Position numbers and translations under genes: made by a program. Source: Malacoraja senta (Eukaryota). From it: a stretch of DNA of 64,000 bases. This document shows positions 4,687-63,261 of this stretch, piece by piece. Below the pieces are notes generated by a model. The model searched no databases and was not told the origin of the DNA. It saw only the letters and a list, made by a program, of their open reading frames with translations. The stretch's first letter is position 1; each line of letters begins with the position of its first letter. The DNA lies in assembly GCA_038087875.1 (NCBI GenBank), contig CM075993.1, positions 5,644,001 to 5,708,000 on the forward strand. Direction: 5' to 3'.

Positions 4687-5536
4687 TGTAATTATTCCTT
4701 CAGAGATCTGGGCTACACCCTGTGGACCAAACACTAAAAGTGTTTCTTTAATCCTACGCTAACTTAAGAGGAGAGTGTCCCTGACTTTGTTTTGAGTTCT
4801 TTTAAAACCTTTACCATTCATGGATGGTGGACTCTGATAATGGCAGCATTTATTTTCCCATCCCCATTTGCCCTGAGCTGTGGAGTCAATTGGGAGTCAA
4901 CTCCATTTTGTGGCCCTAGGGAGCAGGTATCCTCCCCTGAAAGTGCCTTCTCTCTGATCTCCTTTAAATCCACATACATCCATCTGGTAGTTTAGTTGTC
5001 ATAGAGTCTCAGACCTTCGCAGCAAGGAAAAAGGCCCTTCGGCCCAGCTTGTCCATGCCAACCTCTATGTTATTTCATGTTGTAGGAAGGAATGCTGGTT
5101 TAAACCGAAGATAGACACAAAGTGCTGGAGTAACTCAGCGGGGCAGGCGGCATCTGTGGAGAGAAGGAATGGGTGATGTTTCGGGTCGAGACCCTTCTTC
5201 AGACTGCAGACTTCTCTCCAGAGATGCTGCCTGTCCCGTTGGGTTACTCCAACATTTTGTGTCTATCTATTTAAGTTAATCCCTGTTTTTGGTCCATATT
5301 CCTCCATATCCCTGAACTTTTCCAATCCATGTACCTCTCCAAATGGCTTTTAAACATTGCGATTGTACCCGGCTTGCCCACCACCTCTGGCAGTCATTTA
5401 TTCACCACCTCCCGTGTGAAAAACATTCCCCTTCGACCGCTTTAAAACTTTCCCCTCTCACGTTAATTCTATGCCCGCTAGTTTTGAACTTCCCTACACC
5501 CTGGAGAAAAAAGTCCCCAACCATCCATCCTGTCTA

Positions 5537-5781
5537 AGGTAGACAAAAGTGCTGGAGAAACTCAGCGGGTGCAGCAGCATCTATGGAGCGAAGGAAATAG
5601 GCAACGTTTCGGGCCGAAACCCTTCCGGGTTTCGTCCCGAAACGCTGCCTATTTCTTTCAGGGTTTCGGCCCGAAACGTTGCCTATCTCCTTCGCTCCAT
5701 AGATGCTGCTGCACCCGCTGAGTTTCTCCAGCACTTTTGTCTACCTTCGATTTTCCAGCATCTGCAGTTCCTTCTTAAACA
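5537..5781. mobile_element. Penelope-derived fold-back (palindromic) insert
   Basis: Inverted arms flanked by the 15-bp direct repeat catccatcctgtcta (5522-5536 and 5782-5796). Confidence 0.85.
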
Positions 5782-6009
5782 CATCCATCCTGTCTATGCC
5801 CCTGCTGGACACAAAATGCAGGAGTAACTCAGCAGGTCGGGCAGCATCTCTGGAGAGAAAGGATGGGTGATGTTTTGGGTCGCCACACTGCTTGAGACTG
5901 AAAGTGGAGGGGATAGATTGTGTAAACCTCATACAAGGTCACCTCTCAGTCTTGTTTGCTTCAGGGAAAGCAGTCCCAGCCTAGACAGCCTCTCCTTATA
6001 ACTGGGGTG

Positions 6010-6416
6010 AAAACATAGAAAATAGGTGCAGGAGGAGGCCATTCGGCCCTTCGAGCCACCACCGCCATTCATTGCAATCATGGCTGATCGTCCCCAATCA
6101 ATAACCTGCCTTCTCCCCATATCCCTTGATTCCACTAGCCCCTAGAGCTCTATCTAACTCTCTCTTAAATCCATCCTGTGATTTGGCCTCCACTGCCCTC
6201 TGTGGCAGGGAATTCCACAAATTCACAACTCTCTGGGTGAAAACGTTTTTTTCTCACCTCCGTCTTAAATGGCCTCCCCTTTATTCTAAGACTGTGGCCC
6301 CTGGTTCTGGACACGCCCAACATTGGGAACATTTTTCCTGCATCTAGCTTGTCCAGTCCTTTTATAATTTTATATGTTTCTATAAGATCCCCCCTCATCC
6401 TTCTAAACTCCAGTGA
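6010..6416 (-). mobile_element. CR1/HER1-like LINE 3' fragment
   Basis: Translates as MRGDLIETYKIIKGLDKLDAGKMFPMLG..RTRGHSLRIKG. Confidence 0.9.
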
Positions 6417-7242
6417 AAGGGGGAAATGAGGCGGCGAAACAGGCTGATGGGAACACTCTGAGGGTCAGTCTTGAACAGAGGGGCTGAATGGCCCTTTACT
6501 GTTCCCTAAAGGGTGTGAAGGTAGCTGACGGCAGGAGTTGTGACTGTGAAATCACTGAGTTGTCAAACTAACCATGTGTTTCACTAAGTCTGAGTCTGAA
6601 GAAGGGTCTCGACCTGAAACGTCAATATTTCCTTCACTCCGTAGATGCTGCCTCACCCGCTGAGTTTCTCCAGCAATTTTATCTACCATGTGGTTCACCA
6701 ATGTCCTTCAACAGAGTCCGAGTGACTGAGCCTGGATCAGTTTAAAGGAGATGTAGGTGCCTGGAACGCAGGGGTAATGACAGAGGCAGATATGATAGGA
6801 GCGTTTTGGAGGCTTTAGGATAGGCACAGGGATATGCAGGGCATGAGGTACATGGATCATGTGCATGCTGAGGAGATAAGTTTAACTCGACATCATGCTC
6901 AGCACAGACATTGTGGGCTGAAGGGCCTGTTCATAAGTTGTAGAAGCAGAATTAGGCCATTCAGCCCATCAAGTCTACTCCGCCATTGGCTGATCTGTCT
7001 TTCCTTCTCAGCTCCGTTCTCCTGCCTTCTCCCCATAACCCTTGACACCCTAACTAATCAAGAACCCATCAGTCTCCACCTTAAAAATATCCATTGACTT
7101 CATCTCCACGGCCCTCTGTGCTGTTCTTTATTCCATGGCTGTCTGTTGTACAGTCACTCGTGAGTATCTATGAAGATGGGCGATGAGCAGAAAAGCCAAA
7201 TGTGGGTGGATTTACAGTGTAGTCAAGTTAGATTTACCCTGG

Positions 7243-7344
7243 GTAGACAAAAATGCTGGAGAAACTCAGCGGGTGAGGCAGCATCTATGGAGTGAAGGAA
7301 TAGGTGACATTTCGGGCCGAAACCCTTCTTCAGACTGACCCTTC
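7243..7344 (-). mobile_element. Penelope-derived short insert with hammerhead core
   Basis: Minus strand has CTGAAGAAGGGTTTCGGCCCGAAA. Flanked by the 12-bp direct repeat gatttaccctgg (7231-7242 and 7345-7356). Confidence 0.8.
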
Positions 7345-8050: not shown

Positions 8051-8464
8051 CTCTTTTAAGTCAAGACTAAAGACTTATCTATACCCCCAAGCCTTTCCTG
8101 GCGTCCTCTGAGTGAGAGCTGCATGTATATATGTATGTAGGTACACAAAAATGCTGGAGAAACTCAGCGGGTGCAGCAGCATCTATGGAGCGAAGGAAAT
8201 AGGCAACGTTTCGGGCCGAAACCCTTCTTCAGACTGATAGGCAATATATGTATGTAGTCTGAAGAAGGGTTTCGGCCCGAAACGTTACCTATTTCCTTCG
8301 CTCCATAGATGCTGCTGCACCCGCTGAGATTCTCCAGCATTTTTGTGTACCTATGTATGTAGTTTGTTTTGTTTGTGCTATTCTTATAACAAATGTAAAG
8401 CACTTTGGCCAACGAGAGTTGTTTTTTAAATGTGCTATATAAATAAATGTGACTTGACTTGACT
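8051..8464 (+). mobile_element. L2-like LINE 3' end nested in a SINE, itself containing a Penelope-derived palindrome
   Basis: FKSRLKTYLY peptide, then tgtaaagcactttg...tgctatataaataaa and a (GACTT)n tail. SINE head at 7948-8050 and SINE remainder at about 8478-8655. Confidence 0.7.
8259..8290 (+). ncRNA. Minimal hammerhead ribozyme motif (Penelope type); representative of dozens of copies
   Basis: CTGAAGA-A-GGGT(TTCG)GCCC-GAAA-C-GTT: conserved CUGANGA and GAAA boxes, stem II, a short palindromic stem III and an NUH triplet. Confidence 0.7.
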
Positions 8465-9009: not shown

Positions 9010-9595
9010 TAGGCTTTAGGTACAGCCCGGAAACAGGCCATTTGGCCCCCCGAGTCTGTGCTGACCAGTAATCACCCCGTACACCAGCACTATCCCACAT
9101 ACTAGGGGCAATTAAATTTTATTTACCGAAGCCCATTAATCTACAAATGTGGACAAAAGCGCTGGAGAAACTCAGCGGGTGAGGCAGCATCTATGGAGCG
9201 AAGGAAATGGGCAACGTTTCGGGCCGAAACCCGGAAGGAAATAGGCAACGTTTCGGGCCGAAACCCGGAAGGAAATAGGCAACGTTTCTGGCCGAAACCC
9301 GGAAGGGTTTCGTCCCGAAACGTTGCCTATTTCCTTCGCTCCATAGATGCTGCCTCACCCAGTTTCACCAGCCCTTTTGTCTACCTTCGATTTTCCAGCA
9401 TCTGCAGTTCCTTCTTAAACCTACAAATGTGCACGTTTTTGGAGTGTGGGAGGAAAACCGGAGCACCTGGAGAAAACCCTCGTGGTCACAGAGGGAATGT
9501 ACAAACTCCGTACAGTCAACACCCGGAGGCAAGGTTGAACCCGGGACACTGGCGCTGTGAGGCAGCAACTCTACCGCTGCGCCACCGTGCCACTG
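9010..9595 (-). mobile_element. HE1-type SINE interrupted by a Penelope-derived palindrome (9152-9420)
   Basis: Direct repeat ctacaaatgtg at 9141-9151 and 9421-9431 flanks the palindrome. Confidence 0.8.
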
Positions 9596-10204
9596 TGTCC
9601 TTGCCATCATTTCTCCCTCAGCCAACATCATCAGAGATCAGCGCCCGGCTGTGTTGCTGTTGGACCATGGGCGACTGCTGTACACAAACAGACTGCTGCA
9701 TTGCCAATGCTTCTGCAGCAATGCGGAACTATTTTTTATCAGCAACACGGTATTTTTGGACATCCCATATGGGCCGTGAATTGTGCAATAGAACCACATG
9801 TTTGTTTTTAGTGAGGGTTTTGGGAAACAAAGACTCCCCCTCCCAATCCACAATCAGTCTGGTCCCGACCAGAAACGTTTAACGTCACCTATCCATGTCC
9901 TCCAGAGATGCTGCCTGACCCCTTGAGTCACATGTTTAAGCAGGAACTGCAGATGCTGGAAAAATCGAAGGTAGACAAAAATGCTGGAGAATCTCAGTGG
10001 GTGCGGCAGCATCTATGGAGCGAAGGAATTGGCGACGTCGCCTATTCCTCACCTCCATAGATGCTGCCTCACCTGCTGAGTTTCTCCAGCATTTTTGTCT
10101 ACCCTGAGTTACATACACCACTGCAAGTTTGAATTTCATTGTTCTATCTGGGATAACATGATGGCAAGACCATCTTTCATCTACCTGCACATAGCGTGCA
10201 TCAT

Positions 10205-10974: not shown

Positions 10975-11715
10975 CAGTTCTGGCAAACACATTCCAGGAA
11001 AGATGTGCAGGTTTGGAGAGGTTGCAGATGAGGATTACCAGAATGCTGCCTGGATTAGAGGGTTTCAGCTTCGGGGAGAGGTTGGATAGACTTGGATTGG
11101 TGTCTCTGGAACGTTGAAGGTTGAGGGGTGACTTGACAGAAGTACATAAAATCAAGAGAGGCATTAGAAACATAGGTACAGGAGTAGGCCCTTCGAGCCA
11201 GCACCGCCATTCAATACGATCATGGCTGATCATCCAAAATCAGTACCCCGTTCCTGCTTTTTCCCCATATCCTGAAGAATATCCATTTCCCCTTAGACTG
11301 AAGAAGGGTTTCGGCCCGAAACGTTGCCTATTTCCTTCGCTCCATAGATGCTGCCGTACCCGCTGGGTTTCTCCAGCATTTTTGTCTACCTTTTCCCCAT
11401 GTCCCTTGATTTCATTAGCCCTAAGAGCTAAATCTAACTCTCTCTTGAAAACATCCAGCGAATTGGCCTCCACTGCCTTCTGTGGCAGAGAATTCCACAG
11501 ATTCACAACTCTCTGGGTGAAAGAGTTTTTCCTCATCTCAGTCCAAAATGGCCTACCCCTTATTCTTAAATTGCCACCCCTGGTTCTGGACTTCCCCCAA
11601 CATCGGGAATTTTTTTCCTGCATCTGGCCTGTCCAATCCTTTAAGAATTGTATATGTTTCTATAAGATCCCCTCTCATCCTCCTAAATTCCAGTGAATAC
11701 AAGCCCAGTCGACCC
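10975..11715. mobile_element. Two opposed CR1 fragments with a hammerhead-bearing insert (about 11272-11390)
   Basis: Plus strand LERLQMRITRMLPGL; minus strand RGRPFWTEMRKNSFTQRVVNLWNSLP. The repeat ttttccccat flanks the insert. Confidence 0.8.
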
Positions 11716-12189: not shown

Positions 12190-12568
12190 TGTGCGGGAAG
12201 GAACTGCAGACACAAAATGCCGGAGTCACTCAGCGGGACAGGCAGCATCTCTGGAGAGGAGGAATGGGTGACGCCTCAGGCGTCGAGATCCCTCTTGAGA
12301 CTGAGAGTCAGGGACGAGGGTGACACAGAGATAAGGAAGGGGAAGGTGTGAAGATGAGACATCAAAGGAGATGGAGATCAAGGAAATGTAGAATAGATCA
12401 ATGTTAGCTCGTGGCAGCGAATCGTACAGAGATAAAACTTAATCAGGGGGGGACAGTCAGACTGGCCAGAGAACGAGGAAGGGGGAGGGATGGAGAGAGG
12501 ACAAGCAAGGGTTACTTGAAGTCAGAGAAGTCAATATTCATACCGCTGTTGTGTAAGCTGCCCAGATC
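12190..12568 (-). mobile_element. Penelope-like element 3' part (ORF end plus terminal repeat)
   Basis: Minus strand reads LGSLHNSGMNIDFSDFK*, a GIY-YIG C-terminus, followed by a degenerate copy of the second terminal-repeat family. Confidence 0.75.
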
Positions 12569-13804
12569 TGACTTGGTGGAAGCAAAGACCGCATAACAAA
12601 CCTGACCTCCTTGCTGTGACTGGGGGCTGTGAGCATCATTGAGATGTTGCATTGCGAAAGGGAACGCACGGCTCTATGCTTGTCTCAGCTGTGGGACATC
12701 TAACCCATTTAGTTTAGTTTAGTTTATTGTCACGTGTACCGAGGTACAGTGAAAAGCTCTTTGTTGTGTGCTAACCAGTCAGCGGAAACCAGTCTGAAGA
12801 AGGGTCTCGACCCGAAACATCACCCATACCTTCTCTCCAGAGATACTGCCTGCCCCGCCGAGTTACTGCAGCTTTTTGTATCTATCTTCAGCGGAAAGAC
12901 AATACATGATTACAATCGAGCCGTCCACAGTGTACAGATACATGATAAGGGAATAACGTTTAGTGCAAGATAAAGCCAGTAAAGTCCAACCAAAGATAGT
13001 CCGAGGGTCACCAATAATTAGTTGATTAGTACGAGTGTCAGGGGTTATGGGGGGGAAGGCAGGAGAATGGGGTTTGGAGGGAGAGATAGATCAGCCGCGA
13101 TTGAATGGCGGAATAGACTTGATGGGATGAATGGCCTAATTCTGTTCCTACCACTTATGACCTTAATCTGTCCGTAGCAGGCAGCACCTACACACCAACT
13201 CAAGGACATCTCAAAGCCTCTTAGATGCCGCTATTGTATCTGCCTTGTTCCATTCTTACATTCCCTCAGCTGAGCAGAGGAGCAGAGGCTCCAGACAGTG
13301 TGAGCTTAGGCCCACTGGCTGCTGAGGCTGACAGTGTGGCCCGTAAACAGGCAGCCGAATGGACCCCTCCACATGGTGTCAGGGTGACAATATGGGCATC
13401 GGCAGAGGCACAATGGGCACTGGCCACCGCATGTTCAATCCATGGGCTGGGGGTGAGAGATTGCAACCTTCACATGGTCCACCGTGTGTCAACGGCATCT
13501 GCAGTTCCTTCCAACACAAGTCTTTGATTACATTGGCTGCGTTTCCCAGGCAGTGTAAATCCTGAGTCTGGTGGTGCGCCCTTTCATGCTTCTGTACGTT
13601 CTACCACAAGGGAGCAGGGAGAGGAAGGAATGACCGGGGTGGGACATGTCCTTTGATTATGTTGGCTGCTTTTCCGAGGCAGCGTGATGTGTGGATGGAG
13701 TCGAGGGTGGGAAGTCAGGGACGAATGGCCTACTCTTATTGTGTGACCCTTGCCGGTAACGCAGTGGCTGACGGTTGCTTGTCTTTGATTTTCCCCAAAC
13801 GCAG

Positions 13805-13907
13805 GCGTTCGTTCCCTGGGATGTGGACCTGACCTCCTTTGACCTTGACCAGCAGCTGAGGCACTTTGTGACCAGGCATTCGGCTCAGTTCTCCAGCGAG
13901 GTTCGAG
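13805..13907 (+). CDS. MAP1A: MAP1A-like coding exon (equivalent to exon 2), with an apparent 1-bp insertion
   Basis: Acceptor ttttccccaaacgcag and donor GAG|gtaagt. Reads (G)VRS then, after a +1 shift, WDVDLTSFDLDQQLRHFVTRHSAQFSSEVR(G). This resembles the MAP1A/1B/1S N-terminus; DLTSFDL-QQLR and FSSEV are closest to MAP1A as recalled. Length is 103 bp versus 102 bp recalled for the MAP1B equivalent. Confidence 0.9.
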
Positions 13908-14411
13908 GTAAGTCCAGCGTCCAGAGACTGCGGTCTCAGAAGGTCCCGATATCTCCCCCAACTTCCTTGTATCCATCGTGGAGCATTATTTGACGACCAC
14001 TCCTGCTGTTAACCCCACACCTACACACACCTGAGTCTGAACTGCTGCTTTTTACAGAACCATATCTGCGTTAGATACAAAAACCTTGCCTTGCATATTA
14101 AGCCGTGCACTCCTGGAATCTCAAACTGTTTATTGTTTAAAGAATCACTTTAAATATATTTGAAATAAAGATATCACTAACTTGCCTGTAAAAACAGAAG
14201 ACGTTGGAAATGCTCATCAGACCAGGTATTGACATGAAATGTTGCAAACTAGGAACTGCAGATGCTGGTTCATTAAGAAGGCCCAGAGTGCTGGAGTAAC
14301 TCAGTGGGTCAGGCAGCTTCTCAGGAGAACATGGATAGGTGATGCTTCCGGTCGAGACCCTTCTACAGACGGAAGAAGGAACCCCCACCCGAAATGTCGC
14401 CTCTCCATGTT

Positions 14412-15482: not shown

Positions 15483-16176
15483 CGGGTGCTTGTTTCAAGA
15501 TGTGGGATGGATTATGATGTGTTACGACAACAATAAGAGATGTCCCCTCCTCCTGATGCTTAATGTGTGACAATTAATCCCTTTGTGTTTGAACCAACCC
15601 CTGTTAATTAACGCATCATTTACGGGCTGTGGGGGTCGATGGTGGTGCCAGCATTTATTGCATTTCCCCAATTGGTCCTGAGAAGATTGCCCCATGAGCT
15701 ACCTCCTTGAAGTCATTGTGACATGTAGAAAACACCTATTTTCTATATGTGTAGGAAGGAACTGCAGATGCCGGTTTACACCAAAGAGAGACACAAAAAG
15801 CTGGAGTAACTCAGCGGGACAGGCAGCTTCTCCGGAGGGAAGGAATGTGTGACGTTTCGGGTGGAGAAGCCTGAAGAAGGGTCTCAACCCGAAACGTCAC
15901 CAATTCATTCTCTCCGGAGATGCTGCCTGTCCCGCTGAGTTACTCCAGCTTTTAGTCTCTTTCTCCTATTTTCTACATCAATGGTTCAAGAGGGAATGCA
16001 TTTACTTTGAAGAACTGTTTGTGCTTAGGAGGCAATTGATCTGGGTATTGATCGTGGAGCAACCAGTCTGCACACATTCGGCCAAATCGACCAGACTGTT
16101 TGCGCACTGTCAGTGTCTCGAGGGTTCAGTTCTGCTCGGCTGGTACGAAGTGGCTGGATTGCAGGTGCTGTGGATC

Positions 16177-17699: not shown

Positions 17700-18275
17700 C
17701 CACAAAATCATGAGAGGAATAGATCGGGTAGATGCACAGAATCTCTTGCCCAGAGTAGGTGAATCAAGGACCAGAGGACAGAGGTTTAAGGTGAAGGAGA
17801 AAAGATTTAATAGGAATCTGAGGGGTAACTTTTTCACACAAAGGGTGGTGGGTGTATGGAACAAGCTGCCAGAGGGGGGTAGTTGAGGCTGGGGCTATCC
17901 CAACATTTAAGAAACAGTTAGACAGGTACATGGATAGATTGGTAGACAAAAATGCCGGAGAAACTCAGCGGGTGCAGCAGCATCTATGGAGCGAAGGAAA
18001 TAGGCACCGTTTCGGGCCGAAACCCTTCTTCAGACGAGTTTCTCCAGCATTTTTGTCATAGATGCTGCCACACCCGCTGAGTTTCTCCAGCATTTTTGTC
18101 TACCTTCGATTTTCCAGCATCTGCAGTTCCTTCTTGAACATGGATAGATAGGACATGTTTGGAGGGATATGGACCAAACGTGGGCAGGTGGGACTAGTGT
18201 AGTTGGGACATGTTGGTCGGTGTGGGCAAGTTGGGCTGAAGGGCCTGTTTCCACACTGTATCACGGTATGACTCT
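17700..18275 (+). mobile_element. CR1 3' fragment containing a Penelope-derived palindrome
   Basis: Translates as KIMRGIDRVDAQNLLPRVGESRTRG. Direct repeat acatggatagat at 17928-17939 and 18138-18149. Confidence 0.8.
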
Positions 18276-18858: not shown

Positions 18859-19529
18859 TTACAGCTCCAGAGACGCGGGTTCGATCCTGACTACGGTTGC
18901 TGTCTGTACGGAGTTTGTACTGTATGTTCTCCCCATGACCCGCGTGGGTTTTCCCCGGGTGCTCCGGTTTCCTCCCACACTCCAAAAGACGTACAGCTTT
19001 GTACTGTAGGTTAATTGGCTTCTGTCACAAGAAGCGCAAGACGGACGCCATTGTACGCAGATGCGGAGAAGTGTGTTCAGCTCTGGCTGGACAACTTCTA
19101 ATCTTGTGTGTGGACTCGATAAGAAGATTGTCCCTAGTGTGAAGGATAGTGTTAGTTTACGGGTGATCGCTGGTCATCACAGGCCAACTAAACTAAACTA
19201 AATTATAACATTATAACGTTAAAGATATAACATTGAAACACAAAAGACTGGAGATGCAGGAATCTTGAGCAAACAAACAAAGTGTTGGAGGAACTCAGCA
19301 GGTCAGGCAGCATGTATGGAGGAAAATGGACAAAATGGACCTTTCAGATCAGGACCCTTTGCTAAATATGTCTTGGAAGGAACTACCCATGCTGGTTTGA
19401 ACAGAAGGCAGACACAAAATGTGGAGTAACTCAGCGGGACAGGCAGCAACTCTGGAGAGAAGGAATGGGAAGTCTGAAGAAACGTCACCCATACCTTCTG
19501 TCCAGAGATGCTGCCTGTCCGACGCGTTA

Positions 19530-25555: not shown

Positions 25556-27760
25556 ATGCTATGACCAACCCTGATCCAGCCACTTGACAGGTCGCAATGT
25601 AGGGTCATGACCCTGACCTAACTTCCTTGTCCCCGTCAGGACTCCTGACCGCCCAACACCTTGTCCTGATCTGAAGAAGGGTTTCGTCCCGAAACGTTGC
25701 CTATCTCCTTCGCTCCATAGATGCTGCTGCACCCGCCGAGTTTCTCCAGCACTGTTGTCTACCTTGTCCTGACCTACCAGGTTGAAGCAACCCTAACAGG
25801 AACCCCAAACCTCAGTGTGCCCCAAATGCAACCCCATCTCATAAGTTTGGGAATGGTCTCCCAGTCGACCTTCCATGGCTGAGACAATGGATGTAGCAGG
25901 GTATAGAAACAAGCGCACTAAAGGACACAAATTACTGGAGTAACTCAGCGGGTCAGGCAGCATCTCTGGAGAATATGGATAAGTGACGTTTTGGGTCGAG
26001 ACCCTTCTTCAGACCGGCAGGGTGGTTAGTATATGGAAGGGGATGCCAGAGGAAGAAGTTGAGGCAGGGTCCAATTCGCGATGGCTTCTGCATCCCAGGT
26101 CTTCTTCTTATCAAGTCCACACACAAGATTAGAAGTTGGTCAGCCAGAGCTGAACACACTTCTCGGCATCTGCATACAATGGTGTCTTTCTTGTCGCTTC
26201 TTGTGCGTGGTGGTGGAAAGATTGGTGGAAACAGGGGCCGCGACGTGAACGCACTTCCCTTGACCCCTGCTTCCGGGGTTGGAAATATCAAATATTCCCC
26301 AGAATGGACATATCCCAAAAATGTGGATGTAACGCTGAGGCTTTCTAAGGCACTGGTGAGACGGCATTTGGTGTAATGGTGTTTAAGAGGCTTTTAGATA
26401 GGCACAAAATGCTGGAGTAACTCAGCGGGTCAGGCAGTGTCTCTGGAGAGAAGGAATGGGTGATGTTTTGGGTCGAGATCCTTCTTCAGATAGACATGTG
26501 GATAAGCAGGGAATGGAGAGATATGGATTATGCACAGGCAGATATGTGATGGCATCATGTTCAGCCCGGACATTGTGAGCCGAAGGGTCTGATCCTGTGC
26601 TGTACCGTTCTGTACAGGGGCATTGTGGGGGTGGTCTACTGGCAGGAGGGAAAGCTCCAATTTAACATGGGTTTGGGCAAACTTTCATCAAAGGCATCCG
26701 AGCACGCAGACGCAAGTCCCTCCCTGGTGTTCCCCTGTGTGATCATTGACACAAAATGTCCAATTAAACCGTTTGCCAACAGAGTCGGTCCTAGCCAATC
26801 CTTCACCTTTCCCTCCCGTTAATTAGCCGAGTTAGTCAGGCGTGATGACCCAAGGCGACAATTAGAAGCTTCCGTTCACACGTCTAAGCAGTTGCCATTG
26901 ACAGAGGAAGCCAGTTTATTTCTAGCGGCGTTTCCACAGGTTAGGTGGGAATCAGAGCCCTTGGTAACCCTCACCCAGCACTTCGAGGACACCAGATCAG
27001 TTGTGAATGAAAACACAGTTCAAAAGAAATAAATTGGAAAGCAGCGAATTCCTATTAAACTTGCATCAACCCTTGAGCTGGAATCAAAGTGCTGGAGGAT
27101 AGACACAATGGGACAGGCAGCATCTCTGGAGAGAAGGAATGGGAACCGTCACCAAAAAAATGGGAATTCACTCCAGAGATGCTGCCTGTCACGTTGAGTT
27201 AAGCCAGCATTTTGTGTCCATCTTCGATGTAAACCAGCATCTGTAGTTCTTTCCTGCACAAAATGCTGGAGGAACTTAGTGTAGGCATTACCTGTGGAGA
27301 GAATAGATCGATGATGTTTCAGGTCAAAGGCATATGGATTATGAGTAGACAGATGAGAGTTGGTCTTGACATTATGTTCAGCACGGACATTGCAGGTCGA
27401 AGGGCCCAACTGAACCTTTCTCCAGTACACATGAAAGCAAAACGATGATGAAATCTGTCAGGTTTTGTCACTTTCCCCACCCATTCCGCCAATCACCCCC
27501 ACCCCTCTTGCCTGCATCCACCTATCACTCGCCAAGATAGTCACCAAATGCTGGAGTAACTCAGGCAGCATCTCTGGAGAGGAGGAATTGGTGACGGTTT
27601 TGGGTCAAGACCCTTCATCAGACTCGCGTCCAAAGCTTTCTCTCGTGTCAAGCTTAGTCCTAGCCCTACCCCTCTTTCCAGTTTTCTCCCCCTTTTTCCA
27701 ATCAGTCCGCAGGAGGGTCCCGGCCAAAAATGTTGTCTGTTGAACCTCACCACGGATGCT

Positions 27761-42947: not shown

Positions 42948-43321
42948 CCAATAACCAACCTGATCTCCCGGTGGCTCAGCACTTCAACTCCCCCTCCCAT
43001 TCCGTATCTGACCTCTCTGTCCTGGGCCTCCTCCATGGCCTGAGTGAGGACCACCGGAAATTGGAGGAGCAGCACCTCATATTTCACTTGGGCAGTTTAT
43101 ACCCCAGCGGTATGAACATTGACCTCCAATTCCAGGTACTCCTCACTGTCTCCTCCCCTTCTCAGCTCTCCCTCAGCCCTCTGGCTCCTCCTCTTCCTTT
43201 CTTCTTCCCGCCCCCACCCGACATCAGTCTATAGAAGGGTTTCGGCCCGAAACGTTGCCTATTTCCTTCGCTCCATAGATGCTGCCTCACCCGCTGAGTT
43301 TCTTCAGCACATTTGTCTACC
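42948..43321 (+). mobile_element. Penelope-like element 3' part inserted in a SINE
   Basis: PVAQHFNSPSHS..LEEQHLIFHLGSLYPSGMNID (GIY-YIG C-terminus), followed by a terminal repeat whose hammerhead core is mutated to ctataga. Confidence 0.88.
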
Positions 43322-44390: not shown

Positions 44391-44695
44391 GGTAGACAAA
44401 AATGCTGGAGAAACTCAGCGGGCGAGGCAGCATCTATAGGAAATAGGCAACGTTTTGGGCCGAAACCCCTGAAGGAAATAGGCAACGTTTCGGGCCGAAA
44501 CCCTGAAGGAAATAGGCAACGTTTCGGGCCGAAACCCGGAAGGAAATAGGCAACGTTTCGGGCCGAAACCCGGAAGGGTTTCGTCCCGAAACGTTGCCTA
44601 TTTCCTTCGCTCCATAGATGCTGCCTCACCCACTGAGTTTCTCCAGCATTTTTGTCTACCTTCGATTTTCCAGCATCTGCAGTTCCTTCTTAAAC
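44391..44695. mobile_element. Penelope-derived palindrome with an internal tandem unit of about 32 bp
   Basis: Direct repeat aaaggtaacatggt at 44380-44393 and 44696-44709. Confidence 0.85.
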
Positions 44696-45164
44696 AAAGG
44701 TAACATGGTGCCTGCCTTATGGGGACTGGTAGAACTGTACACTACGTAACAAGCACCTGGTACCCTTGCATTCTATCTTTACTGATCCACTCAGAACTCT
44801 TTACCTTTGGGACTTTATCACGAAGGCGAGGCACTCAAGCAGGGAAGACAATGTTCTGGCTGTCTGTATTAAATGAGAGCAAAATATCATCTAAGGGTGA
44901 TCTTCACCTCCCACGTACTTCATAGGGAGCGCCACTCTGCGAAAGATGCCACCTTTTTGGATGAGATGTTAAACTTAAGTTGTTACTTGTGGGCGGAGCA
45001 CCAAGGCGAATTCCTTGTATGTGAATACTTGGCCAATAAACTTACTTACTTACTTACTTAAGTGTTGTCACCCGTCCCCCACCCCCCCCTCCCCAATCCA
45101 CCCCATCTCAGGCCGTTGAATCACCTTCATGAAGAATAGGGTTGTTTCTCCCCATCAATGACTC

Positions 45165-45745
45165 ATAGAGTCATAGAATGATACAGCATTGAAACGGGCA
45201 CCGGCCCAACTTGCCTACACCAGCCAACATGTCCCAGCTACACTAGTCCCACTTGCCCGCGCTTGGCCCATATCCCTCCAAACCTGTCCTATCTATGTTT
45301 CGTAAATGTTAGGATAGTCCCTGCCTCAACTACCACCTCTGGCAGAAGAAGGGTTTCGGCCCGAAACGTTACCTATTTCCTTCGCTCCATAGATGCTGCT
45401 GCACCCGCTGAGTTTCTTCAGCATTTTTGTGTACCTACCACCTCTGGCAGCTTGTTCCGTACACCCACCACCCTCTGTGTGGAAATGTTACCCCTCAGAT
45501 TTCTATTAAATCTTTTCCCCTTCACCTTAAACCTATGTCCTCTGGTCCTCGATTCCCCTACTCTGGGCAAGAGACTCTGTGCATCTACCTGATGTATTCC
45601 TCTCAAGATTTATACACTATAAGATCACCCCTCGTCCTCCTGTGCTCCAAGAAATAGAGTCCCAGCCTGCTCAACCTCTCCCTATAGCTCACACCCTCTA
45701 GCCCTGGCAACATCCTCGTAAATCTTCTCTGCACCCTTTCCATGC
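45165..45745 (-). mobile_element. CR1 3' fragment with a hammerhead-family insert
   Basis: The insert is flanked by the direct repeat ctaccacctctggcag. Confidence 0.8.
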
Positions 45746-49929: not shown

Positions 49930-50630
49930 TAGTTAGGGTGGGAAATGAGAAAATCGGTCTGAAGAAGGGTTTCGGCCCCGAAACGTTGCCTATTTCCTTC
50001 GCTCCATAGATGCTGCTGCACCCGCTGAGTTTCTCCAGCACTTTTGTCTACCTAGAAAATGAGAACCGTCTGAGATGGAGTCAATGGTGCCCTGGGAGAG
50101 ATTTCTTGATGGAAGAAATGATGTGGACAGAATCACTTGCTTCCACTAAACCTGCGAGCAGAAGTCGTAATCATTAGGAAAAATTGGGAGTTGAGCTAAA
50201 TCTGAAATGTTCTTGAAACTGGATCAATCCAAGAATTGCATCAGCCAGCCAGCTGAAAAACGGCAATGTTGTTCCAATTAAACACCAAGCCCAGAAACAT
50301 GATCCATCCAACTAAATCAACATCTGCAGCAGGGAGAACATCGTGCTGGGTTATAATGGAGGGGGTGGAGCGTCCATGCAGAACAGGGAGCTCTCTTGTG
50401 GGTGGTGGGGCCGGGATCTACATTGGGAGCTTGGACACTAGAAACTGGGATGATGGCCCACTGTCGGTATGAGGGATTGCCGTGCTGTCAGTGATGCCGT
50501 ACTGGTAGATGAGGCACCCAACCGTGAGCTCTTCTAGCCTCTTGTGGTCCAATGAGTCACAGAGTCATTCAGCACAGAAGCAGGCCCTTTGGCCCATCAT
50601 ATCAATGCCGCCCATCCAGTACCACTCTAT

Positions 50631-50861
50631 GTTTTTAAGAAGGAACTGCAGATGCTGGAAAATCGAAGGTAGACAAAAATGCTGGAGAAACTCAGCGGGT
50701 GCAGCAGCATCTATGGAGCGAAGGAAATAGGCAACGTTTCGGGCCGAAACCCTGAAGGAAATAGGCAACGTTTCGGGACGAAACCCGGAAGGGTTTCGGG
50801 CCGAAACGTTGCCTATTTCCTTCGCTCCATAGATGCTGCTGCACCCGCTGAGTTTCTCCAG
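50631..50861. mobile_element. Penelope-derived palindrome
   Basis: Direct repeat cagtaccactctat at 50617-50630 and 50862-50875. Confidence 0.85.
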
Positions 50862-51027
50862 CAGTACCACTCTATATTCATTTCATTTACCAACACTTGC
50901 CCCATAGCCTTCTCGGCCATGGTGATTCAAGTGCTCATCTAGATAGTTTAATTTTTGAGATGCCGCGCGTAAACTGGCCCTTCGGCCCATCGAGTCCGCA
51001 CCGACCAGCGATCCCCGCTAACACTGA

Positions 51028-54164: not shown

Positions 54165-54289
54165 CCATTTATCATTTATCATTTACCAGCACAATCTAAA
54201 TGGGCTGAATGGCCTCCTGAGTCATAAATGTTCTGACGTTGTACGATACGGACTTCTTGGCTTTAATCTCCAACTTTATTGTGTTCATT

Positions 54290-54775: not shown

Positions 54776-57309
54776 GCCTCCAGAGGAAAGACAGTGTTGA
54801 TGCTTTTACAATATTGTTTCATTATTTCCGCACTTTTCCAATTGAATTGTGGGGCCAGACATGTGCCTGAGTTGGCTTAGTTTTCCGACAGATCAGATAT
54901 ATCCAAGGCAGAGATTTCCAATACATTGAGCACCAGCTGTAATGTGCAGGGACCTTTATTTTAAGGTCAGAATGATAATGTCCTGTTAATGTTCCTTCTG
55001 TATAATTGCAACCATTTCAGTGGAAAGAGGCCAGTATGGGTTCAGTAACATTTAGAGGCTTCAAACGTCAGTGAGTGAGAGCTGCTACAACTAAAAATTA
55101 ACTTTAAATATAGATAAAGCAAAAATGACAATTGAATTTCCATGATATGACTTCTGCACAGCTGATAAATAAGCAAGATAGATACTCCCTCTTTATAAGA
55201 CCATAAGACAATAGACAATAGACAATAGACAATTCGGCCCTTCAAGCCAGCACCGCCATTCAATGTGATCATGGCTCATCATCCCCAATCAGTACCCCGT
55301 TCCTGCCTTCTCCCCATATCCCCTGACTCCGCTATCTTTAAGAGCTGTATCTAACTCTCCTTCTGAACCTTCTGAATTTTGTAGTCGGCAGGGCGGTACT
55401 CTGCATATCGCCAACTTGGACAATTTAAACATTTTTACCAAGCCAATTAAACAAGCCAATTAACCTACATACCTGCACGTCTTTGGAGTGTGGGAGGAAA
55501 CGGAAGATCTCGGAGAAAACCCACGCAGATCACGGGGAGAACGTACAAACTCCATACAGACAGCACCCGTAGTCGGGATCGAACCCGGGTCTCTGGCGCT
55601 GCATTTTGCTGTAAGGCAGCAACTCTACCGCTGCGCCACCGTGACGGCCCCAACTCTCTCCTGAAAGCATCCAGAGAATTGGCCTCCACTGCCTTCTGAG
55701 GCAGGGAATTCCACAGATTCACAACTCTCTGGGTGAAAAAGTTCTTCCTCATCTCCGTTCTAAGTGGCCTACCCCTTATTCTTAAGTCGTAGTGTATGAA
55801 ATCATGAGAGGAATAGATTGTGTAGACGCGCAGAGTCTCTTGCCCAGAGTTGGGCAATGGAGAAGCAGAGGACATAGGTTTAAGGTGAGGGGGGAAAGAT
55901 TTAATAGGGTCACTTTGTCACGCAGAGGGATTAGGTGTATGGAACGAGTTACCAGAGGAGGTAGACAACAAAAGTTGGAGTAACTCAGCGGGATAGGCTG
56001 ATCTGAAACATTTTCCAGAGATGCTGCCTGTCCCACTGATTTACTCCAGCATTTTGTATCTATCCGGTATAAAGGATCAGGATTGCTCCCTAGTTGGTGA
56101 AAGAATGGTTCAAAGGCTTGATAACAGCTGGAAAGAAACTGTCCCTGAATCTGGAAGCAGATACTAAATGCTGGAGTAACTCAGCGGGTCAGGCAGCATC
56201 TCAGGAGAAACGGAATAGGTGACGTTCGGGTCGAGACTGAAATAAGTCTGGAATATAAAGCCGGTCTCATTGACGTCAACTGTGAAGTTGCTGGAGATTT
56301 TTTAACCCGTCTGCTTCAACGCTGTCCTTCGGAGCGGGATGTTCGTAATCTGACTCTGGACACACCAAGGCGGTTGATTATTCAACATTAACAATTAAAA
56401 ACAAAAAAAAAGACACAAAGTGCTGGAGTAACTCAGCGGGACAGGCAGCATCTGTGGGGAGAGGGAATGGGTGACGTTTCGGGTCGAGGCCCTCCTTCAG
56501 ACTGAACGTCACGGGAAAGGGAAACGAAAGAACGTCACCCATTCCTTCTCCCCACAGAGGCTGCCTGTCCCGCTGAGTTACTCCAGCTTTTTGAGTCTAT
56601 CCAATTTACCAGACTTGTTCAGAAGGGTCCCAATTCAAAACGTTTTGTTTTGTAAAACAATTCCTTGCTTCAAGAGTTAAAGACTTTTCGACGGGTACAT
56701 GGATGGGAACAGTTTAAAGGGATATGGGCCAAACTATTAATAGTTTAGTGTGGGTGCTGGGGGGTTATGGGGGGGGAAGGCAGGAGAATGGGGTTAGGAG
56801 GGAAAGATAGATCAGCCATGATCACATTGAATGGTGGTGCTGGCTCGAAGGGCGAATGGCCTACTCCTGCACCTATTGTCTATTGTCTATAGACTCCATG
56901 GGCTGAATGACCTAGAAACATAGAAACATAGAAAATAGGTGCAGGAGTAGGCCATTCGGCCCTTCGAGCCTACACCGCCATTCAATGTGATCATGGCTGA
57001 TCATCCAACTCAGTATCCCGTACCTGCCTTCTCTCCATACCCCCTGATCCCTTTAGCCACAAGGGCCACATCTAACTCCCTCTTAAATATAGCCAATGAA
57101 CTGGCTAATTCTACTCCTACAACCTATGAACAAACATGCACAGGTAGGATTAGCGTAGATGGGGCATCTTGGCCGGCATGGACAAGTTGGGCTGAATGGC
57201 CTGTTGCCGTGCTGTATGACTCCATGCTGTTACTACATGACTCAGCAGGTCACATAGTCAGGGAAGAGATTTTGGGATTGGCCTAGTAAACAGAAATAGA
57301 ACAGTACAG

Positions 57310-57509
57310 NNNNNNNNNNNNNNNNNNNNNNNNNNNNNNNNNNNNNNNNNNNNNNNNNNNNNNNNNNNNNNNNNNNNNNNNNNNNNNNNNNNNNNNNNNN
57401 NNNNNNNNNNNNNNNNNNNNNNNNNNNNNNNNNNNNNNNNNNNNNNNNNNNNNNNNNNNNNNNNNNNNNNNNNNNNNNNNNNNNNNNNNNNNNNNNNNNN
57501 NNNNNNNNN
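57310..57509. other. Assembly gap (200 N)
   Basis: Run of N characters. Confidence 1.
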
Positions 57510-60490: not shown

Positions 60491-60741
60491 CAGATGTGTC
60501 AGCTTTGGTTTGTGCCTGTGAGTCACTGTTGCCGGGCACAATTTTTGCGGTCGAAGATGGGTACACAAGATGCTGGAGTAACTCAGCGGGACGGGCAGCC
60601 AACATCTCCGGAGAGAAGGAATGGGTGACGTTTCGGGTCGAGACCCTTCTTGCGTCGTGGCGTTTTGGTTTCACGGTCTATCTCAGTGTGCCCATGCTCT
60701 AACCTGATCTACAATCAATGTGTGTCCTTGTCTTTCCCCAG

Positions 60742-60824
60742 GCCAGAAGACACTCCACCACAGGAGTGATGAGCTGGAGTCCGTGGTCCTGGTAAACCCC
60801 ACAGAGCACACTGTCGCCTCAGAG
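60742..60824 (+). CDS. MAP1A: MAP1A-like coding exon (equivalent to exon 3), 83 bp
   Basis: Acceptor ccttgtctttccccag and donor GAG|gtaact. Phase 1 to 0, reading (G)QKTLHHRSDELESVVLVNPTEHTVASE, compared with MAP1B GQKILHHRSDVLETVVLINPS. Confidence 0.93.
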
Positions 60825-60884
60825 GTAACTGCCCCCCCTGCCCTCCCTCTCCCCTCCCCTCCGCCCCATCCTTTCTGTTGTTTG

Positions 60885-61867
60885 GTTTCAAGAGAGAGTT
60901 AGATTTAGCTCTAAGGGCTAACGGAATCCAGGGAAATGGGGAGAAAGCAGGAACGTGAGGAATTGATTCTGGCTGATCAGCCATGATCATATTGAATGGG
61001 TCGTAGGGCCGATTGGCCTACTCCTGCACTTATTTTCTACCCACATCCCATGAATTAATAATTCAAAAGAGAGACTCTATTATCTCAGTAGCTCAGTGGC
61101 TATTGTGTCATTGCATTAGGGAGAACGCATCACATGGCCTCAAACTAGAATGGAGATGAGGATGAATTTCTAAAGCCAGAGGAAGTGAATCTGTGGAGTT
61201 CATTGCCACAGACGGCTGTGGAGGCCAAGTCAATGGGGATTTTTAAAGCGGAGATTTCTAGGTCCTTGATAAGTAAGGGCGCTCCAAGGTTACGGAGAGA
61301 AGGCAGGAGAATGGTGTTGAGAGGGAAAGTAGATCAGCCACGATTGAATGGGAGGAGCAGACTCGATGGGCCGAATGGCCTAATTCTGCTAATTTGAGGA
61401 AAGACATTCTTGCTATTGAGGGAGTGCAGAGTAGGTTCACCAGGATAATTCCCGGGATGGCGGGACTGACATAGGATGAAAGAATGGGTCGACTGGGCTT
61501 GTATTCACTGGAATTTAGACGGATGAGAGGGGACCTTATAGAGACATTTAGCATTCTTAAGGGATTGGACAGGCTAGATGCCGGAAAAATGTTCCCGATG
61601 TTGGGGGAGTCCAGAATCAGGGGTCACAGTTTCAGAATAAGGGTAGGCCATTTAGGACTGAGATGAGGAAAGACTTTTCACCCAGGGAGTTGTGAATCTG
61701 TGGAATTCTCTGCCACAGAAGGCAGTGGAGGCCATATCACGGAATGTATTCAAGAGAGAGTTAGATAGAGCTCTTCGGGCTAACGGAATCAAGGATATGG
61801 GGAGAAAGCAGGAACGGGAGGCGGGTACTAATTTAGGATGATCAGCCATGATCATATTGAATGGCGG
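60885..61867 (+). mobile_element. Three CR1 fragments filling most of the 1.1-kb intron between exons 3 and 4
   Basis: Includes LRKDILAIEGVQSRFTRIIPG.. and RLGLYSLEFRRMRGDLIETF. Confidence 0.85.
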
Positions 61868-61936
61868 AGGGCAGGGGCTGGTGGGGAGGGGTTGGACTCC
61901 CCGTGTGACGTGTGACGCCCTCGGTTCCCGTTTCAG

Positions 61937-62077
61937 GTTCACGCTCTCGTGGCCGACCCGTCCCAGCATAAGCTCCTGATTCTGTGCGGGCAAACGACAG
62001 AACACGGAGGAGACCTGATACTACAGACTGGGACGTACACCTTTCAAAGATTCGTCGAGACCTTTGCAGACACTGAG
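61937..62077 (+). CDS. MAP1A: MAP1A-like coding exon (equivalent to exon 4), 141 bp
   Basis: Acceptor ttcccgtttcag and donor GAG|gtgagc. Phase 0 to 0, reading VHALVADPSQHKLLILCGQTTEHGGDLILQTGTYTFQRFVETFADTE, compared with MAP1A KLLILSGQ..GGDLILQSGTYS. Confidence 0.93.
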
Positions 62078-62549
62078 GTGAGCTTGTGGACTATTAAACA
62101 TTGCAATGGAGTCATACAGCACAGACATGGGCCCTTCAGCCAAAACATGTCCACATTGACCAAGATGCTCCATCTAAGATCCCTATCCCCATTTGCTCAC
62201 TCATGTCCCAAATCCTTCTAATCTAAATCATCTACGCCATCCTACAATCTACCTCATCGGGGACCCTAGGACAACCTTTGATCGGACTTAAGACACAAAA
62301 GCTGGAGTAACTCAGCGGGACACGCAGCATCTGCAGAGAGAAGGAATGGGTGACATTTCGGGTCTCTATTCTTCAATTGGACCCGAAACGTCACCATTCC
62401 TTCTCTCCGGAGACGCTGCCTGTCCCGCTGAGATACCCCATCATTTCTGTGTCTATCTTCGGTGTCAACCAGCATCTGCAGTTCCTTCCTACACATATGG
62501 TCGGACTTTACTGGCTTTACCTTGCACTAAACATTATTCCCATATCTCG

Positions 62550-62774
62550 GGTGGATAAAAATGCTGGAGAAACTCAGCGGGTGCGCCGGCATCTATGGAG
62601 CGAAGGAAATAGGCAACGTTTCGGGCTGAAACCCGGAAGGATAGGCAACGTTTCGGGGACGAAACCCGGAAGGGTTCGGCCCGAAACGTTGCCTATTTCC
62701 TTCGCTCCATAGATGAGTTTCTCCAGCATTTTTGTCTACCTTCGATTTTCAGCATCTGCAGTTCCTTCTTGAAC
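62550..62774. mobile_element. Penelope-derived palindrome
   Basis: Inverted arms with approximate flanking repeat attcc(c)atatc. Confidence 0.75.
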
Positions 62775-63261
62775 ATTCCATATCGTGTATCTGTACACTG
62801 TGAGTGGCTCGATTGTAACCATGTATTGTCTTTCCGCTGGCTGGTTAGCGCTGAACAAAAGCTTTACACGTGGGCAATAAACGAAACTGAAACTACAGCA
62901 CAGAAGCAGGCCCTTCCCGCCAAAACATCGACCAAGGTGTTCCATCTAAGCTACCTCGCGCATGTCCCAAATCCTTCTGAACCTATCTTTGCACGTGCAA
63001 TAATAGCGTGCAGGATAAAGGAGATGGTTTCAAAAATTAGTCACCAGCTTTAAGCATAGAACCAGGCACTCTGCCCCACTTCTGGGGCTTCTGCTGCACC
63101 CCTCCTCTGCTCCTCCATCACTAAGACCTCCTGCCCATTCTCCCTGTGTTTATCCAGCCTCCCCTCAAATGCCTTTGCCTGTCCACCACAACCACATGCA
63201 CTGGGAACAAGGTCCACACGCTGCCTTGTGTCGTCTGTTTCTTTTACCTCCCCAATTCATC

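What the first reader, a model, noticed from the sequence alone, without database searches (positions are those of the whole stretch)
5075..62775. Dozens of short Penelope-derived inserts carrying a minimal hammerhead ribozyme core, in two co-varying families
Seen: a motif CTGAAGA-A-stem II-GAAAC-(G/A)TH recurs on both strands. Plus-strand examples are 6596, 8259, 11298, 12794, 15870, 25671, 36458 and 49959; minus-strand examples are near 5172-5206, 7303-7336 and 25983-26013. Stem II is GGGT(TTCG)GCCC in one family and GGGT(CTCG)ACCC in the other, so pairing is kept (U-G versus U-A). Each family is attached once to a GIY-YIG ORF end (42948-43321 and 12190-12568), and many 100-250 bp copies have direct repeats of about 9-20 bp. 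Known: Penelope-like elements carry minimal type I hammerheads with a short palindromic stem III that are thought to act as dimers. Inference: these are ribozyme-bearing short retroposition products amplified to SINE-like density, and sense copies could cleave the MAP1A-like pre-mRNA inside its introns.
Basis: partly seen in the sequence, partly recalled or inferred. Interest (0 to 1): 0.8.

Follow-up and report, generated by a model that had tools for sequence, protein, structure and literature searches.

The report
Paired stubs of a Penelope retroelement
The short repeats are 100-135-base copies of the end module of an abundant Penelope-like jumping gene, many inserted as back-to-back pairs, that carry a known minimal hammerhead ribozyme motif; they were likely copied from uncut RNA, and the motif is predicted to be folded off, so cutting of the host gene's transcript is unlikely.

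Summary
The motif is real: 25 matches in the window, 0 in 100 shuffles; 71 arms, 10.7% of the window. It is the pLTR of an endonuclease-positive, Neptune-type Penelope-like element (RT, Cys-linker, GIY-YIG; 3.8-kb unit), a known home of minimal hammerheads. There are at least five subfamilies, not two, and the stem II change is one-sided (U-G/U-A). In a 1.2-Mb genome sample, 5' ends cluster at TCAGT just before the core (191 of 277 that reach it stop there). Only 6 of 474 begin at the predicted cut. 3' ends sit at two sites. About 40% of arms are in head-to-head pairs under one target duplication, and 78 of 92 pairs use one site on each arm (46 expected). Copies that hold the ORF start mostly read through the same edge (21 of 22 in the youngest subfamily), hinting at two RNA templates. 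Intron cleavage of the MAP1A-like gene is unsupported: 6 intact cores, a 2-bp stem I, the active fold predicted 5-12 kcal/mol uphill, no strand bias (22+/24-). The scan noted such elements, and the 5' cluster, in other shark-like genomes.

The parts
42948..43321 (+). 5'-truncated long copy, family A: GIY-YIG C-terminus, pyrimidine-rich 3' UTR, hammerhead module (core mutated at 43229-43235), ends at site 1 (+92)
   Evidence: 40 genome matches at 91-94% scored of 4,176 candidates
12208..12564 (-). 5'-truncated long copy, family B: GIY-YIG end, 218-nt UTR, degenerate core, ends near site 1
556..753 (+). Internal fragment of the parent ORF: Cys-x4-Cys-x2-Cys linker and start of the GIY-YIG domain
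   Evidence: 44,392 first-look candidates in the genome
5092..5274 (.). Head-to-head pair, family B (arms -4..+110 and +36..+102)
5533..5781 (.). Head-to-head pair, family A, site 1 arm plus site 2 (tail) arm, 34-bp repeat at the junction, about 15-bp target duplication
6593..6687 (+). Solo short copy, -3..+92, 14-bp target duplication, intact core, 1-bp stem I
7242..7338 (-). Solo short copy, -5..+92, 15-bp target duplication; stem III C mutated
8139..8352 (.). Head-to-head pair of two young family A arms, both site 1, both with intact cores and 2-bp stem I; target sequence present three times
9146..9420 (.). Head-to-head pair, site 1 plus site 2, with three 34-bp repeats (+5..+38, no CUGA) at the junction; gap over 60 bp so not in the pair count
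9933..10103 (.). Head-to-head pair, site 2 plus site 1, joined at the stem III ACGT palindrome (+23)
11295..11392 (+). Solo short copy, 14-bp target duplication, intact core, no stem I
12787..12888 (+). Solo short copy, family B; G16.2 lost by CpG decay
15749..15964 (.). Head-to-head pair, family B, site 2 plus site 1; right arm core intact, no stem I
17941..18104 (.). Pair with a rearranged junction, site 1 arm on - and tail arm on +
19373..19520 (.). Head-to-head pair, family B, right arm cut short
25670..25765 (+). Solo short copy, 15-bp target duplication; stem II mismatch
25916..26012 (-). Solo short copy, older subfamily; G12 lost by CpG decay
30258..30488 (.). Head-to-head pair (site 1 plus site 2) followed by a third inverted piece
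36454..36550 (+). Solo short copy, -4..+92; the only copy in the 47-kb MAP1 intron with a fully intact core and 2-bp stem I under the strict scan; sense to the gene
44391..44698 (.). Head-to-head pair, site 1 plus site 2, four 34-bp repeats at the junction; not in the pair count
45345..45436 (+). Solo short copy, +2..+93, 16-bp target duplication
49953..50053 (+). Solo short copy with one extra C in stem II
50634..50863 (.). Head-to-head pair, family A, 34-bp repeat junction
56411..56601 (.). Head-to-head pair, both site 1
62291..62493 (.). Head-to-head pair, family B, site 1 plus site 2
62550..62775 (.). Head-to-head pair, family A, site 1 plus site 2, 33-34-bp repeat junction
13802..13924 (+). 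MAP1-family exon match (PF23415 positions 23-63; splice donor at 13908)
60738..60830 (+). MAP1-family exon match (PF23415 positions 57-87)
61934..62083 (+). MAP1-family exon match (PF23415 positions 85-134)

Best explanation
These are short insertions of the pLTR end module of an endonuclease-positive Penelope-like retroelement, likely of the Neptune clade, likely made when the element's protein nicks both strands of a target and starts reverse transcription inside an uncut RNA at two fixed sites about 92 and 128 bases behind the hammerhead core, copying until what is likely the RNA's 5' end at TCAGT just before the core. One primed strand would give a solo copy; two primed strands, one from each site, would give the head-to-head pairs under one target duplication. 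Long copies likely come from a second, longer template (tandem read-through or circular RNA) that has no end at this point. The hammerhead is a passenger: kept in the source elements, decaying in the inserts, and predicted to be locked in an alternative hairpin unless the element's protein remodels it. Shown: parentage, end distributions, pair asymmetry, target duplications. Inferred: twin priming, the start-site reading of the 5' edge (about 0.55 on its own), two templates, ribozyme inactivity.
For: Parent: 484-aa frame with RT and GIY-YIG matches (both below Pfam cut-offs), 86 relatives of 849-1,657 aa, most with RT and many with GIY-YIG, a 3,819-bp unit between two pLTRs whose upstream pLTR runs through the tail towards the ORF. 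5' ends: of 474 sample arms, 191 end at -7..+3, 86 run further, 197 end inside; stop rate 10% per base against 0.8% upstream; same edge for site 1 and site 2 arms (100 of 237, 76 of 203). Only 6 of 474 begin at +28. 3' ends are bimodal. Adjacent arms in the sample: 119 head-to-head, 11 tail-to-tail, 12 direct; of 151 head-to-head pairs in all data 92 had both ends classifiable: 78 mixed, 10 site1/site1, 4 site2/site2, against 45.8 mixed expected (p about 1e-11); 145 of 151 same family; target duplication of 10 bp or more around 33 of 59 pairs against 1 of 59 controls; arms share non-reference alleles above all 200 random pairings; the site 1 arm reaches further 5' in 38 against 21 pairs, p = 0.036. 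Copies holding the ORF start stop at the edge in 2 of 19 and 1 of 22 in the youngest subfamily. No shared upstream exon in 124 solo copies. Frangieh 2024 (PMC11167929): two internal RT starts, both strands cleaved and extended, uncut RNA the main substrate, hammerhead inactive without protein.
Against: No raw RNA reads, so no start site was seen. No excess of an extra G (cap mark) at 5' junctions. The edge is 6-10 bases wide. In the older A subfamily 5 of 16 ORF-start copies do stop at the edge (eight of those 30 loci repeat), so the contrast is weaker there; very processive RT complexes could also read through a stall. 59 of 151 pairs had an unclassifiable end. Only 26 of 156 solo copies show a clear adjacent duplication. 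Frangieh saw no strand difference in start-site use in vitro. Folding energies ignore tertiary contacts, magnesium and protein.
Confidence: 0.65

Rival explanations
1. The 5' edge is a reverse-transcriptase stall or roadblock on one long RNA (C-rich tract, or splicing factors on the polypyrimidine-CAG acceptor-like site that ends at -2), so the short copies are ordinary 5'-truncated PLE ends with a hot spot.
For: Every long subfamily has a pyrimidine-rich UTR and nearly all end in CAG-T just before the core; in D. virilis Penelope an intron ends at helix I (Cervera 2014). Short and long copies share alleles. 5 of 16 older ORF-start copies stop there.
Against: 21 of 22 young ORF-start copies read through the same position; 2 of 19 against 191 of 277, p = 5e-7. 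A spliced junction was found only twice genome-wide and both are explained by target DNA.
Confidence: 0.25
2. Pairs arise by fold-back self-priming of one cDNA, and the two 3' sites are endonuclease cuts that resolve a DNA intermediate, not two priming sites.
For: Junctions often sit on palindromes (stem II region, ACGT at +23). Self-priming (PMC3846280) and endonuclease resolution of the tail (PMC8557442) are the published readings. Arms sharing alleles fits this as well.
Against: A fold-back from a site 2 first strand predicts that the site 2 arm reaches further 5'; the reverse is seen, 38 against 21 (modest). Site 1 is also the commonest end of solo copies (168 against 124). RT starts at the tail boundaries were mapped directly for the anole element (PMC11167929).
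Confidence: 0.25
3. The short copies are a self-propagating non-autonomous family (SINE- or retrozyme-like) transcribed from solo copies and mobilised in trans.
For: Fixed 5' and 3' ends, several hundred thousand copies, internal RT start makes any transcribed copy a possible template.
Against: No short-only alleles in family A (8 variable columns, best p = 0.037 uncorrected at a CpG); each of the five main clusters has at least one endonuclease-linked member (15/63, 14/100, 5/58, 1/37, 1/18), although three minor clusters have none (0/35, 0/12, 0/10); head-to-tail tandems are rare (12 of 584 arms).
Confidence: 0.15
4. Sense copies are working ribozymes that dimerise and cleave the MAP1A-like pre-mRNA.
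For: Core, extra base after A9, G10.1-C11.1 and the ACGT palindrome match the min-HHR consensus; core invariant across five subfamilies after CpG correction (0 of 13 against 16 of 59, p = 0.027); about 8% of sample arms (49 of 584) keep core plus 2-bp stem I.
Against: Stem I is 2 bp; hammerhead-like fold 4.7-11.9 kcal/mol above the minimum, stem II probability at most 0.03, trans stem III worth only -3.1 to -3.5. One strict-intact copy in the 47-kb intron. 22 sense, 24 antisense arms; 10 and 10 with the whole core. Core decays in inserts about as fast as the flank (7.7% against 8.8% non-CpG, 23% against 20% CpG). Published min-HHRs cleave little even as dimers.
Confidence: 0.08

Closest known systems
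Minimal hammerheads in pLTRs of metazoan PLEs (Cervera and De la Pena 2014, PMC4209133; parts 1-2 of 4 read)
   Same: Type I core with an extra base after A9, G10.1-C11.1, palindromic positions 15.2-16.2, thousands of dispersed single motifs tied to truncated PLEs, and motif pairs on opposite strands 100-700 bp apart.
   Different: Helix II is 4 bp and helix I 2 bp here (7-8 and 4-5 bp in Schistosoma; 2-bp helix I as in D. virilis). Density is far higher than the 4,000-9,000 motifs reported for coelacanth and Xenopus. No cartilaginous fish appears in the parts read.
Poseidon element PAc of Anolis carolinensis (Frangieh et al. 2024, PMC11167929; parts 1-2 of 4 read, supplements not seen)
   Same: Two adjacent internal RT starts that bound the tail, both strands extended, uncut RNA as substrate, protein-dependent hammerhead.
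   Different: Here the element has a Cys linker (Neptune type) and the first in-frame ATG of copy L056 lies about 165 bases behind C3, so core and tail are 5' UTR, not coding. The paper reports no strand difference in start use, and in the text read no clustering of genomic 5' ends.
Canonical EN+ PLE insertion structure (Craig et al. 2021, PMC8557442; PMC3846280 on Adineta vaga; passages read)
   Same: 5' truncation, partial tandems, adjacent inverted truncated copy, 30-40-bp tail at only one end, target duplications, Inr-like element in the pLTR.
   Different: Here the whole insert is usually only the inverted pLTR pair or a solo pLTR with no ORF, and the one-tail rule is measured (78 of 92).
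Animal non-LTR retrozymes (Li et al. 2026, bioRxiv 10.64898/2026.07.22.740005; parts 1-3 of 5 read)
   Same: Short, non-coding, pLTR-derived, type I hammerhead, present in a cartilaginous fish.
   Different: Retrozymes are head-to-tail tandems with a full ribozyme per unit; these are solo or head-to-head, and the 34-bp tandems lack CUGA.

Membership tests
Endonuclease-positive Penelope-like element | Single ORF with RT followed by C-terminal GIY-YIG | tested here: met
   L047 484-aa frame: RVT_1 E 7e-5 at 22-137, GIY-YIG E 3.5e-4 at 388-422, both under the curated cut-off; 86 full-length relatives
Endonuclease-positive Penelope-like element | pLTRs from partial tandems, optional 30-40-bp tail, inverted 5' copy, target duplication | tested here: met
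   3,819-bp unit; about 36-bp tail, pairs and duplications
Neptune clade | CX2-5CxxC motif in the RT-EN linker (shared with Nematis) | tested here: met
   Cys-x4-Cys-x2-Cys in window 556-753 and L046-L057; definition from PMC8557442
Neptune clade | RT phylogeny groups with named Neptune elements | not tested
   No named reference sequences came from any call (one search hits are unnamed or hypothetical)
Minimal type I hammerhead (min-HHR) | CUGANGA, GAAA and UH core; extra base after A9; G10.1-C11.1; palindromic stem III | tested here: met
   All five subfamily consensuses after CpG correction; 63 of 584 sample arms intact
Minimal type I hammerhead (min-HHR) | Helix I of 4-5 bp as in most metazoan min-HHRs | tested here: not met
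   2 bp in 49 of 56 descriptor hits, 3-4 bp in 7; a 2-bp helix I is reported for D. virilis
Minimal type I hammerhead (min-HHR) | Match to a curated Rfam hammerhead model | tested here: not met
   0 matches at gathering score
Minimal type I hammerhead (min-HHR) | Self-cleavage as a dimer | not testable with these tools
   Folding predicts an inactive hairpin in naked RNA; no clear fossil peak at +28
Non-LTR retrozyme | At least two head-to-tail units, each with a complete hammerhead | tested here: not met
   12 direct neighbours among 584 arms; window tandems are 33-34-bp pieces without CUGA
SINE-like non-autonomous family | Own lineage of short source copies | tested here: inconclusive
   No short-only alleles in 28 versus 28 family A copies; small sample
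MAP1A orthologue (host gene) | MAP1 N-terminal and MBL-like domains; assignment among MAP1A, 1B, 1S | tested here: inconclusive
   PF23415 and PF25281 met; A versus B rests on the 3,202-codon exon frame and recalled sequence features, no tree

The most novel reading that the evidence does not exclude
The genome is a fossil record of Penelope's mechanism: hundreds of thousands of 'strong-stop' cDNAs copied from an uncut capped RNA that starts at the hammerhead's doorstep, inserted by a dimeric RT that primes one target strand from each of two RNA sites, while a separate circular or concatemeric RNA makes the long copies.
Probability: 0.4. Interest if true: 0.62.

Novelty: new member of a known kind. 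Interest (0 to 1): 0.4.

Why it matters
Hammerheads in Penelope pLTRs and their dispersed truncated copies are known, so the ribozyme claim alone is ordinary. The value lies in how PLEs insert, which is still unresolved: this family has very young members (ORF-start region 99-100% identical across the genome) and enough copies to measure that paired arms use one priming site each and that short and long copies behave differently at the 5' edge. Both give sharp predictions for the existing in vitro PLE assay. It also means that about 5% of the sampled DNA and 11% of this window are PLE stubs that look like a SINE.

Tried and rejected
Rfam at gathering score: nothing. PDB sequence search with the ORF: nothing. 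Spliced-mRNA origin of the 5' edge: 2 genome-wide matches to one junction, both explained by target DNA, and no shared upstream sequence in 124 solo copies; other donors were tested only by the second route. Fossil of cleavage: 6 of 474 ends at +28 against 2.3 per neighbouring base (p = 0.03 for one base, 0.48 for +27..+29); 3 of 16 distinct ORF-start copies that end inside the unit do so at +27..+30 (one is a microhomology deletion, one is diverged): not counted as evidence. Cap-derived extra G: no excess. First core-versus-flank test used eight clusters, two of them deletion artefacts, and gave 7 of 13 against 27 of 64, p = 0.86; it was redone on five clusters, and both raw and corrected values are reported. 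The intact counts (7 of 71, 68 of 584) were relative to references, some mutated, and are replaced. RNA: no RNA holder listed on record; contigs of four runs cannot show starts. Other hammerhead families: the descriptor found 59 hits, 56 of this family, 0 in shuffles. Lunse et al. 2017 could not be opened and is known only through a review (PMC6765202, passages). Paper searches for Penelope with 'twin priming' (2 listed), 'strong-stop' (1 listed), shark hammerhead retrotransposon (4 listed) and elasmobranch Penelope listed nothing on point by title or abstract; subscription papers, Repbase and Dfam were not searchable, and the supplements of PMC11167929 (genomic end plots) and PMC4209133 were not seen and may bear on novelty.

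Full report
Scope and numbering. The window is G000:C17:5644001-5708000 of a 1.94-Gb genome; a ray or skate is my inference from recalled repeat content, not from a call. Unit positions count from hammerhead C3 = 0; the predicted cut follows +27. The genome sample is 120 stretches of 10 kb (1,197,635 bp), picked at round coordinates and over-weighted to small chromosomes.

Observation. A profile finds 79 hits in the window, 71 arms after alignment, 10.7% of the DNA. The first 60 sample stretches give 219 hits in 599 kb, chromosome C1 alone 1.9 per 10 kb, so roughly 0.4-0.7 million arms genome-wide; the window is about three times denser than average. Clustering resolves five subfamilies of about 9-18% divergence. 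Stem II is four pairs with a U-G or U-A top pair: a one-sided change. No Rfam model matches.

Parent element. Upstream of long copies lie a pyrimidine-rich UTR, about 92-225 bases in uninterrupted copies, and a GIY-YIG end; further up are a Cys-x4-Cys-x2-Cys linker and RT. L056 holds a 3,819-bp unit between two pLTRs, and its upstream pLTR runs through the tail into the ORF. 86 relatives of 849-1,657 aa were found. By the linker definition in PMC8557442 (passages) this is Neptune or Nematis type; Neptune is the one reported from vertebrates (Li 2026 preprint). No tree was built. One subfamily is very young (99-100% identity).

Ends. Among 474 sample arms with a complete 3' part, 191 begin at -7..+3 (peak -5..-2, TCAGT), 86 extend further upstream and 197 begin inside the unit; the stop rate is 10% per base at the edge and 0.8% upstream; for young family A it is 22 of 43. 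The edge is the same for both 3' classes. Only 6 begin at +28, so the templates were almost all uncut, in line with PMC11167929. 3' ends fall near +92 and +128, the two bounds of the tail. Target duplications of 11-21 bp adjoin 26 of 156 young solo copies against 0 controls; in 14 of 24 edge copies with a duplication the gap is under 10 bases, and several longer gaps hold inverted element pieces. No common upstream exon exists. Contigs from four public runs of other, unnamed organisms show loose ends at the same three positions, so the anatomy is shared beyond this genome.

Pairs. Of 584 sample arms, 119 neighbour pairs are head-to-head, 11 tail-to-tail, 12 direct. With the window and its flanks there are 151 head-to-head pairs, 145 within one family; 92 have both ends classifiable, and 78 of these combine site 1 with site 2, against 45.8 expected (60 of 70 in the sample alone, 7 of 9 in the window, 62 of 70 with narrower site limits). 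One duplication encloses the pair in 33 of 59 cases against 1 control, arms share non-reference alleles more than random copies (0.019 against 0.011 per column), and the site 1 arm tends to reach further 5' (38 against 21). The published rule that the tail is often at one end only (PMC8557442, PMC3846280) is thus measured here. The simplest reading, inferred, is one protein dimer priming each nicked strand from a different site of the same RNA; fold-back with endonuclease resolution remains a rival.

Two templates. Copies that contain the ORF start were fetched by three searches (30 loci each of 40 scored). Their upstream pLTR stops at the edge in 2 of 19 distinct cases (5 loci without pLTR, 4 ending inside and 2 duplicates left out), 5 of 16 in a partly overlapping older set and 1 of 22 in the youngest subfamily, where many run on for more than 1 kb (3 without pLTR, 3 ending inside, 2 with identical edge context left out). 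I did not check that these copies are complete at the 3' end. An intrinsic stall should act on them as well, so the edge is better read as the 5' end of a short-headed RNA; TCAGT fits the initiator consensus (recalled), and pLTR-internal promoters with an Inr are described (PMC2377424, PMC3846280, passages). No RNA data test this, and no cap mark was seen. Short and long family A copies carry the same alleles, so a separate SINE lineage is not shown.

Ribozyme. The consensus has the min-HHR core, the extra base, G10.1-C11.1 and an ACGT palindrome with no loop, so stem III can form only between two molecules. The core is invariant across five subfamilies once CpG decay is restored (0 of 13 against 16 of 59 downstream columns, p = 0.027; raw 2 of 13, p = 0.31), weak support for selection in source elements. 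Stem I is 2 bp. In five references and two lengths the hammerhead-like fold lies 4.7-11.9 kcal/mol above the minimum, where bases from +5 to +10 pair elsewhere, mostly with +33..+39. In inserts the core decays almost like the flank; 63 of 584 sample arms keep it, 49 with stem I.

Host gene. MAP1-family exons on + lie at 13802-13924, 60738-60830 and 61934-62083, with the giant exon beyond the window; the first exons were not located. Between 13908 and 61937 there are 22 sense and 24 antisense arms, 10 and 10 with the whole core region, and one strict-intact sense copy (36458). This gives no sign of selection against sense copies; the numbers are small.

Comparison and verdict. Dispersed min-HHRs from truncated PLEs, including opposite-strand pairs, were described in 2014 (PMC4209133), so this is a new member of a known kind, not a retrozyme by the tandem criterion. 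My paper searches listed no work on this family or on a strong-stop or twin-priming reading for PLEs, but Repbase, subscription papers and supplements were out of reach. The scan's own notes report the same kind of element, the 5' cluster and fold-back pairs in other shark-like genomes (seen after my analysis); those are unchecked and not support. What this window adds is the one-site-per-arm count and the contrast with ORF-start copies. Interest 0.4.

Noticed in passing
window 35274-36242 (-), and fragments at 11240-11659, 19856-20263, 30994-31398, 37695-38429, 39436-39816: Truncated LINE copies with an RT frame (RVT_1 E 1e-34); CR1/HER1-like by recall.
   Followed up: partly
window e.g. 43440-43640, 3449-3800, 24948-25250: A second abundant short repeat that looks like the tRNA-derived elasmobranch SINE (HE1, name recalled); PLE stubs often insert into it.
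   Followed up: no
window 5621-5693, 9200-9306, 44438-44577, 50720-50792, 62609-62673: Family A pair junctions repeatedly hold 2-4 copies of a 33-34-bp piece (+5..+38) whose ends are complementary, exactly the predicted anti-hammerhead hairpin; suggests repeated template switching on that hairpin.
   Followed up: partly
window 8139-8352: The target sequence occurs three times (left, between the arms, right), as if two insertions or two primings each duplicated it.
   Followed up: no
L248-L277: A very young PLE subfamily, 99-100% identical in the ORF-start region at 40 of 40 scored places; several copies continue over 1.3 kb into a second upstream unit.
   Followed up: partly
L188-L217, about +160 in the unit: A strong splice-donor-like site overlaps the first in-frame ATG of the PLE ORF; L056 lacks about 60 bases nearby that other copies have.
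   Followed up: no
L062-L063 (window +66034..+75639): A 3,202-codon open frame, the giant exon of the MAP1A-like gene; a paralogue with a 1,999-codon frame is on C1.
   Followed up: partly
L059-L060 (about 24-28 kb left of the window, - strand): Gag- and pol-like frames of an LTR retrotransposon, and an RT frame of a different LINE at 19-21 kb left.
   Followed up: no
window 57309-57508: A 200-base run of N (assembly gap or withheld stretch).
   Followed up: no
window 16000-16700 and 42150-42620: Two copies of a GC-rich repeat with short inverted ends, possibly a non-autonomous DNA transposon.
   Followed up: no
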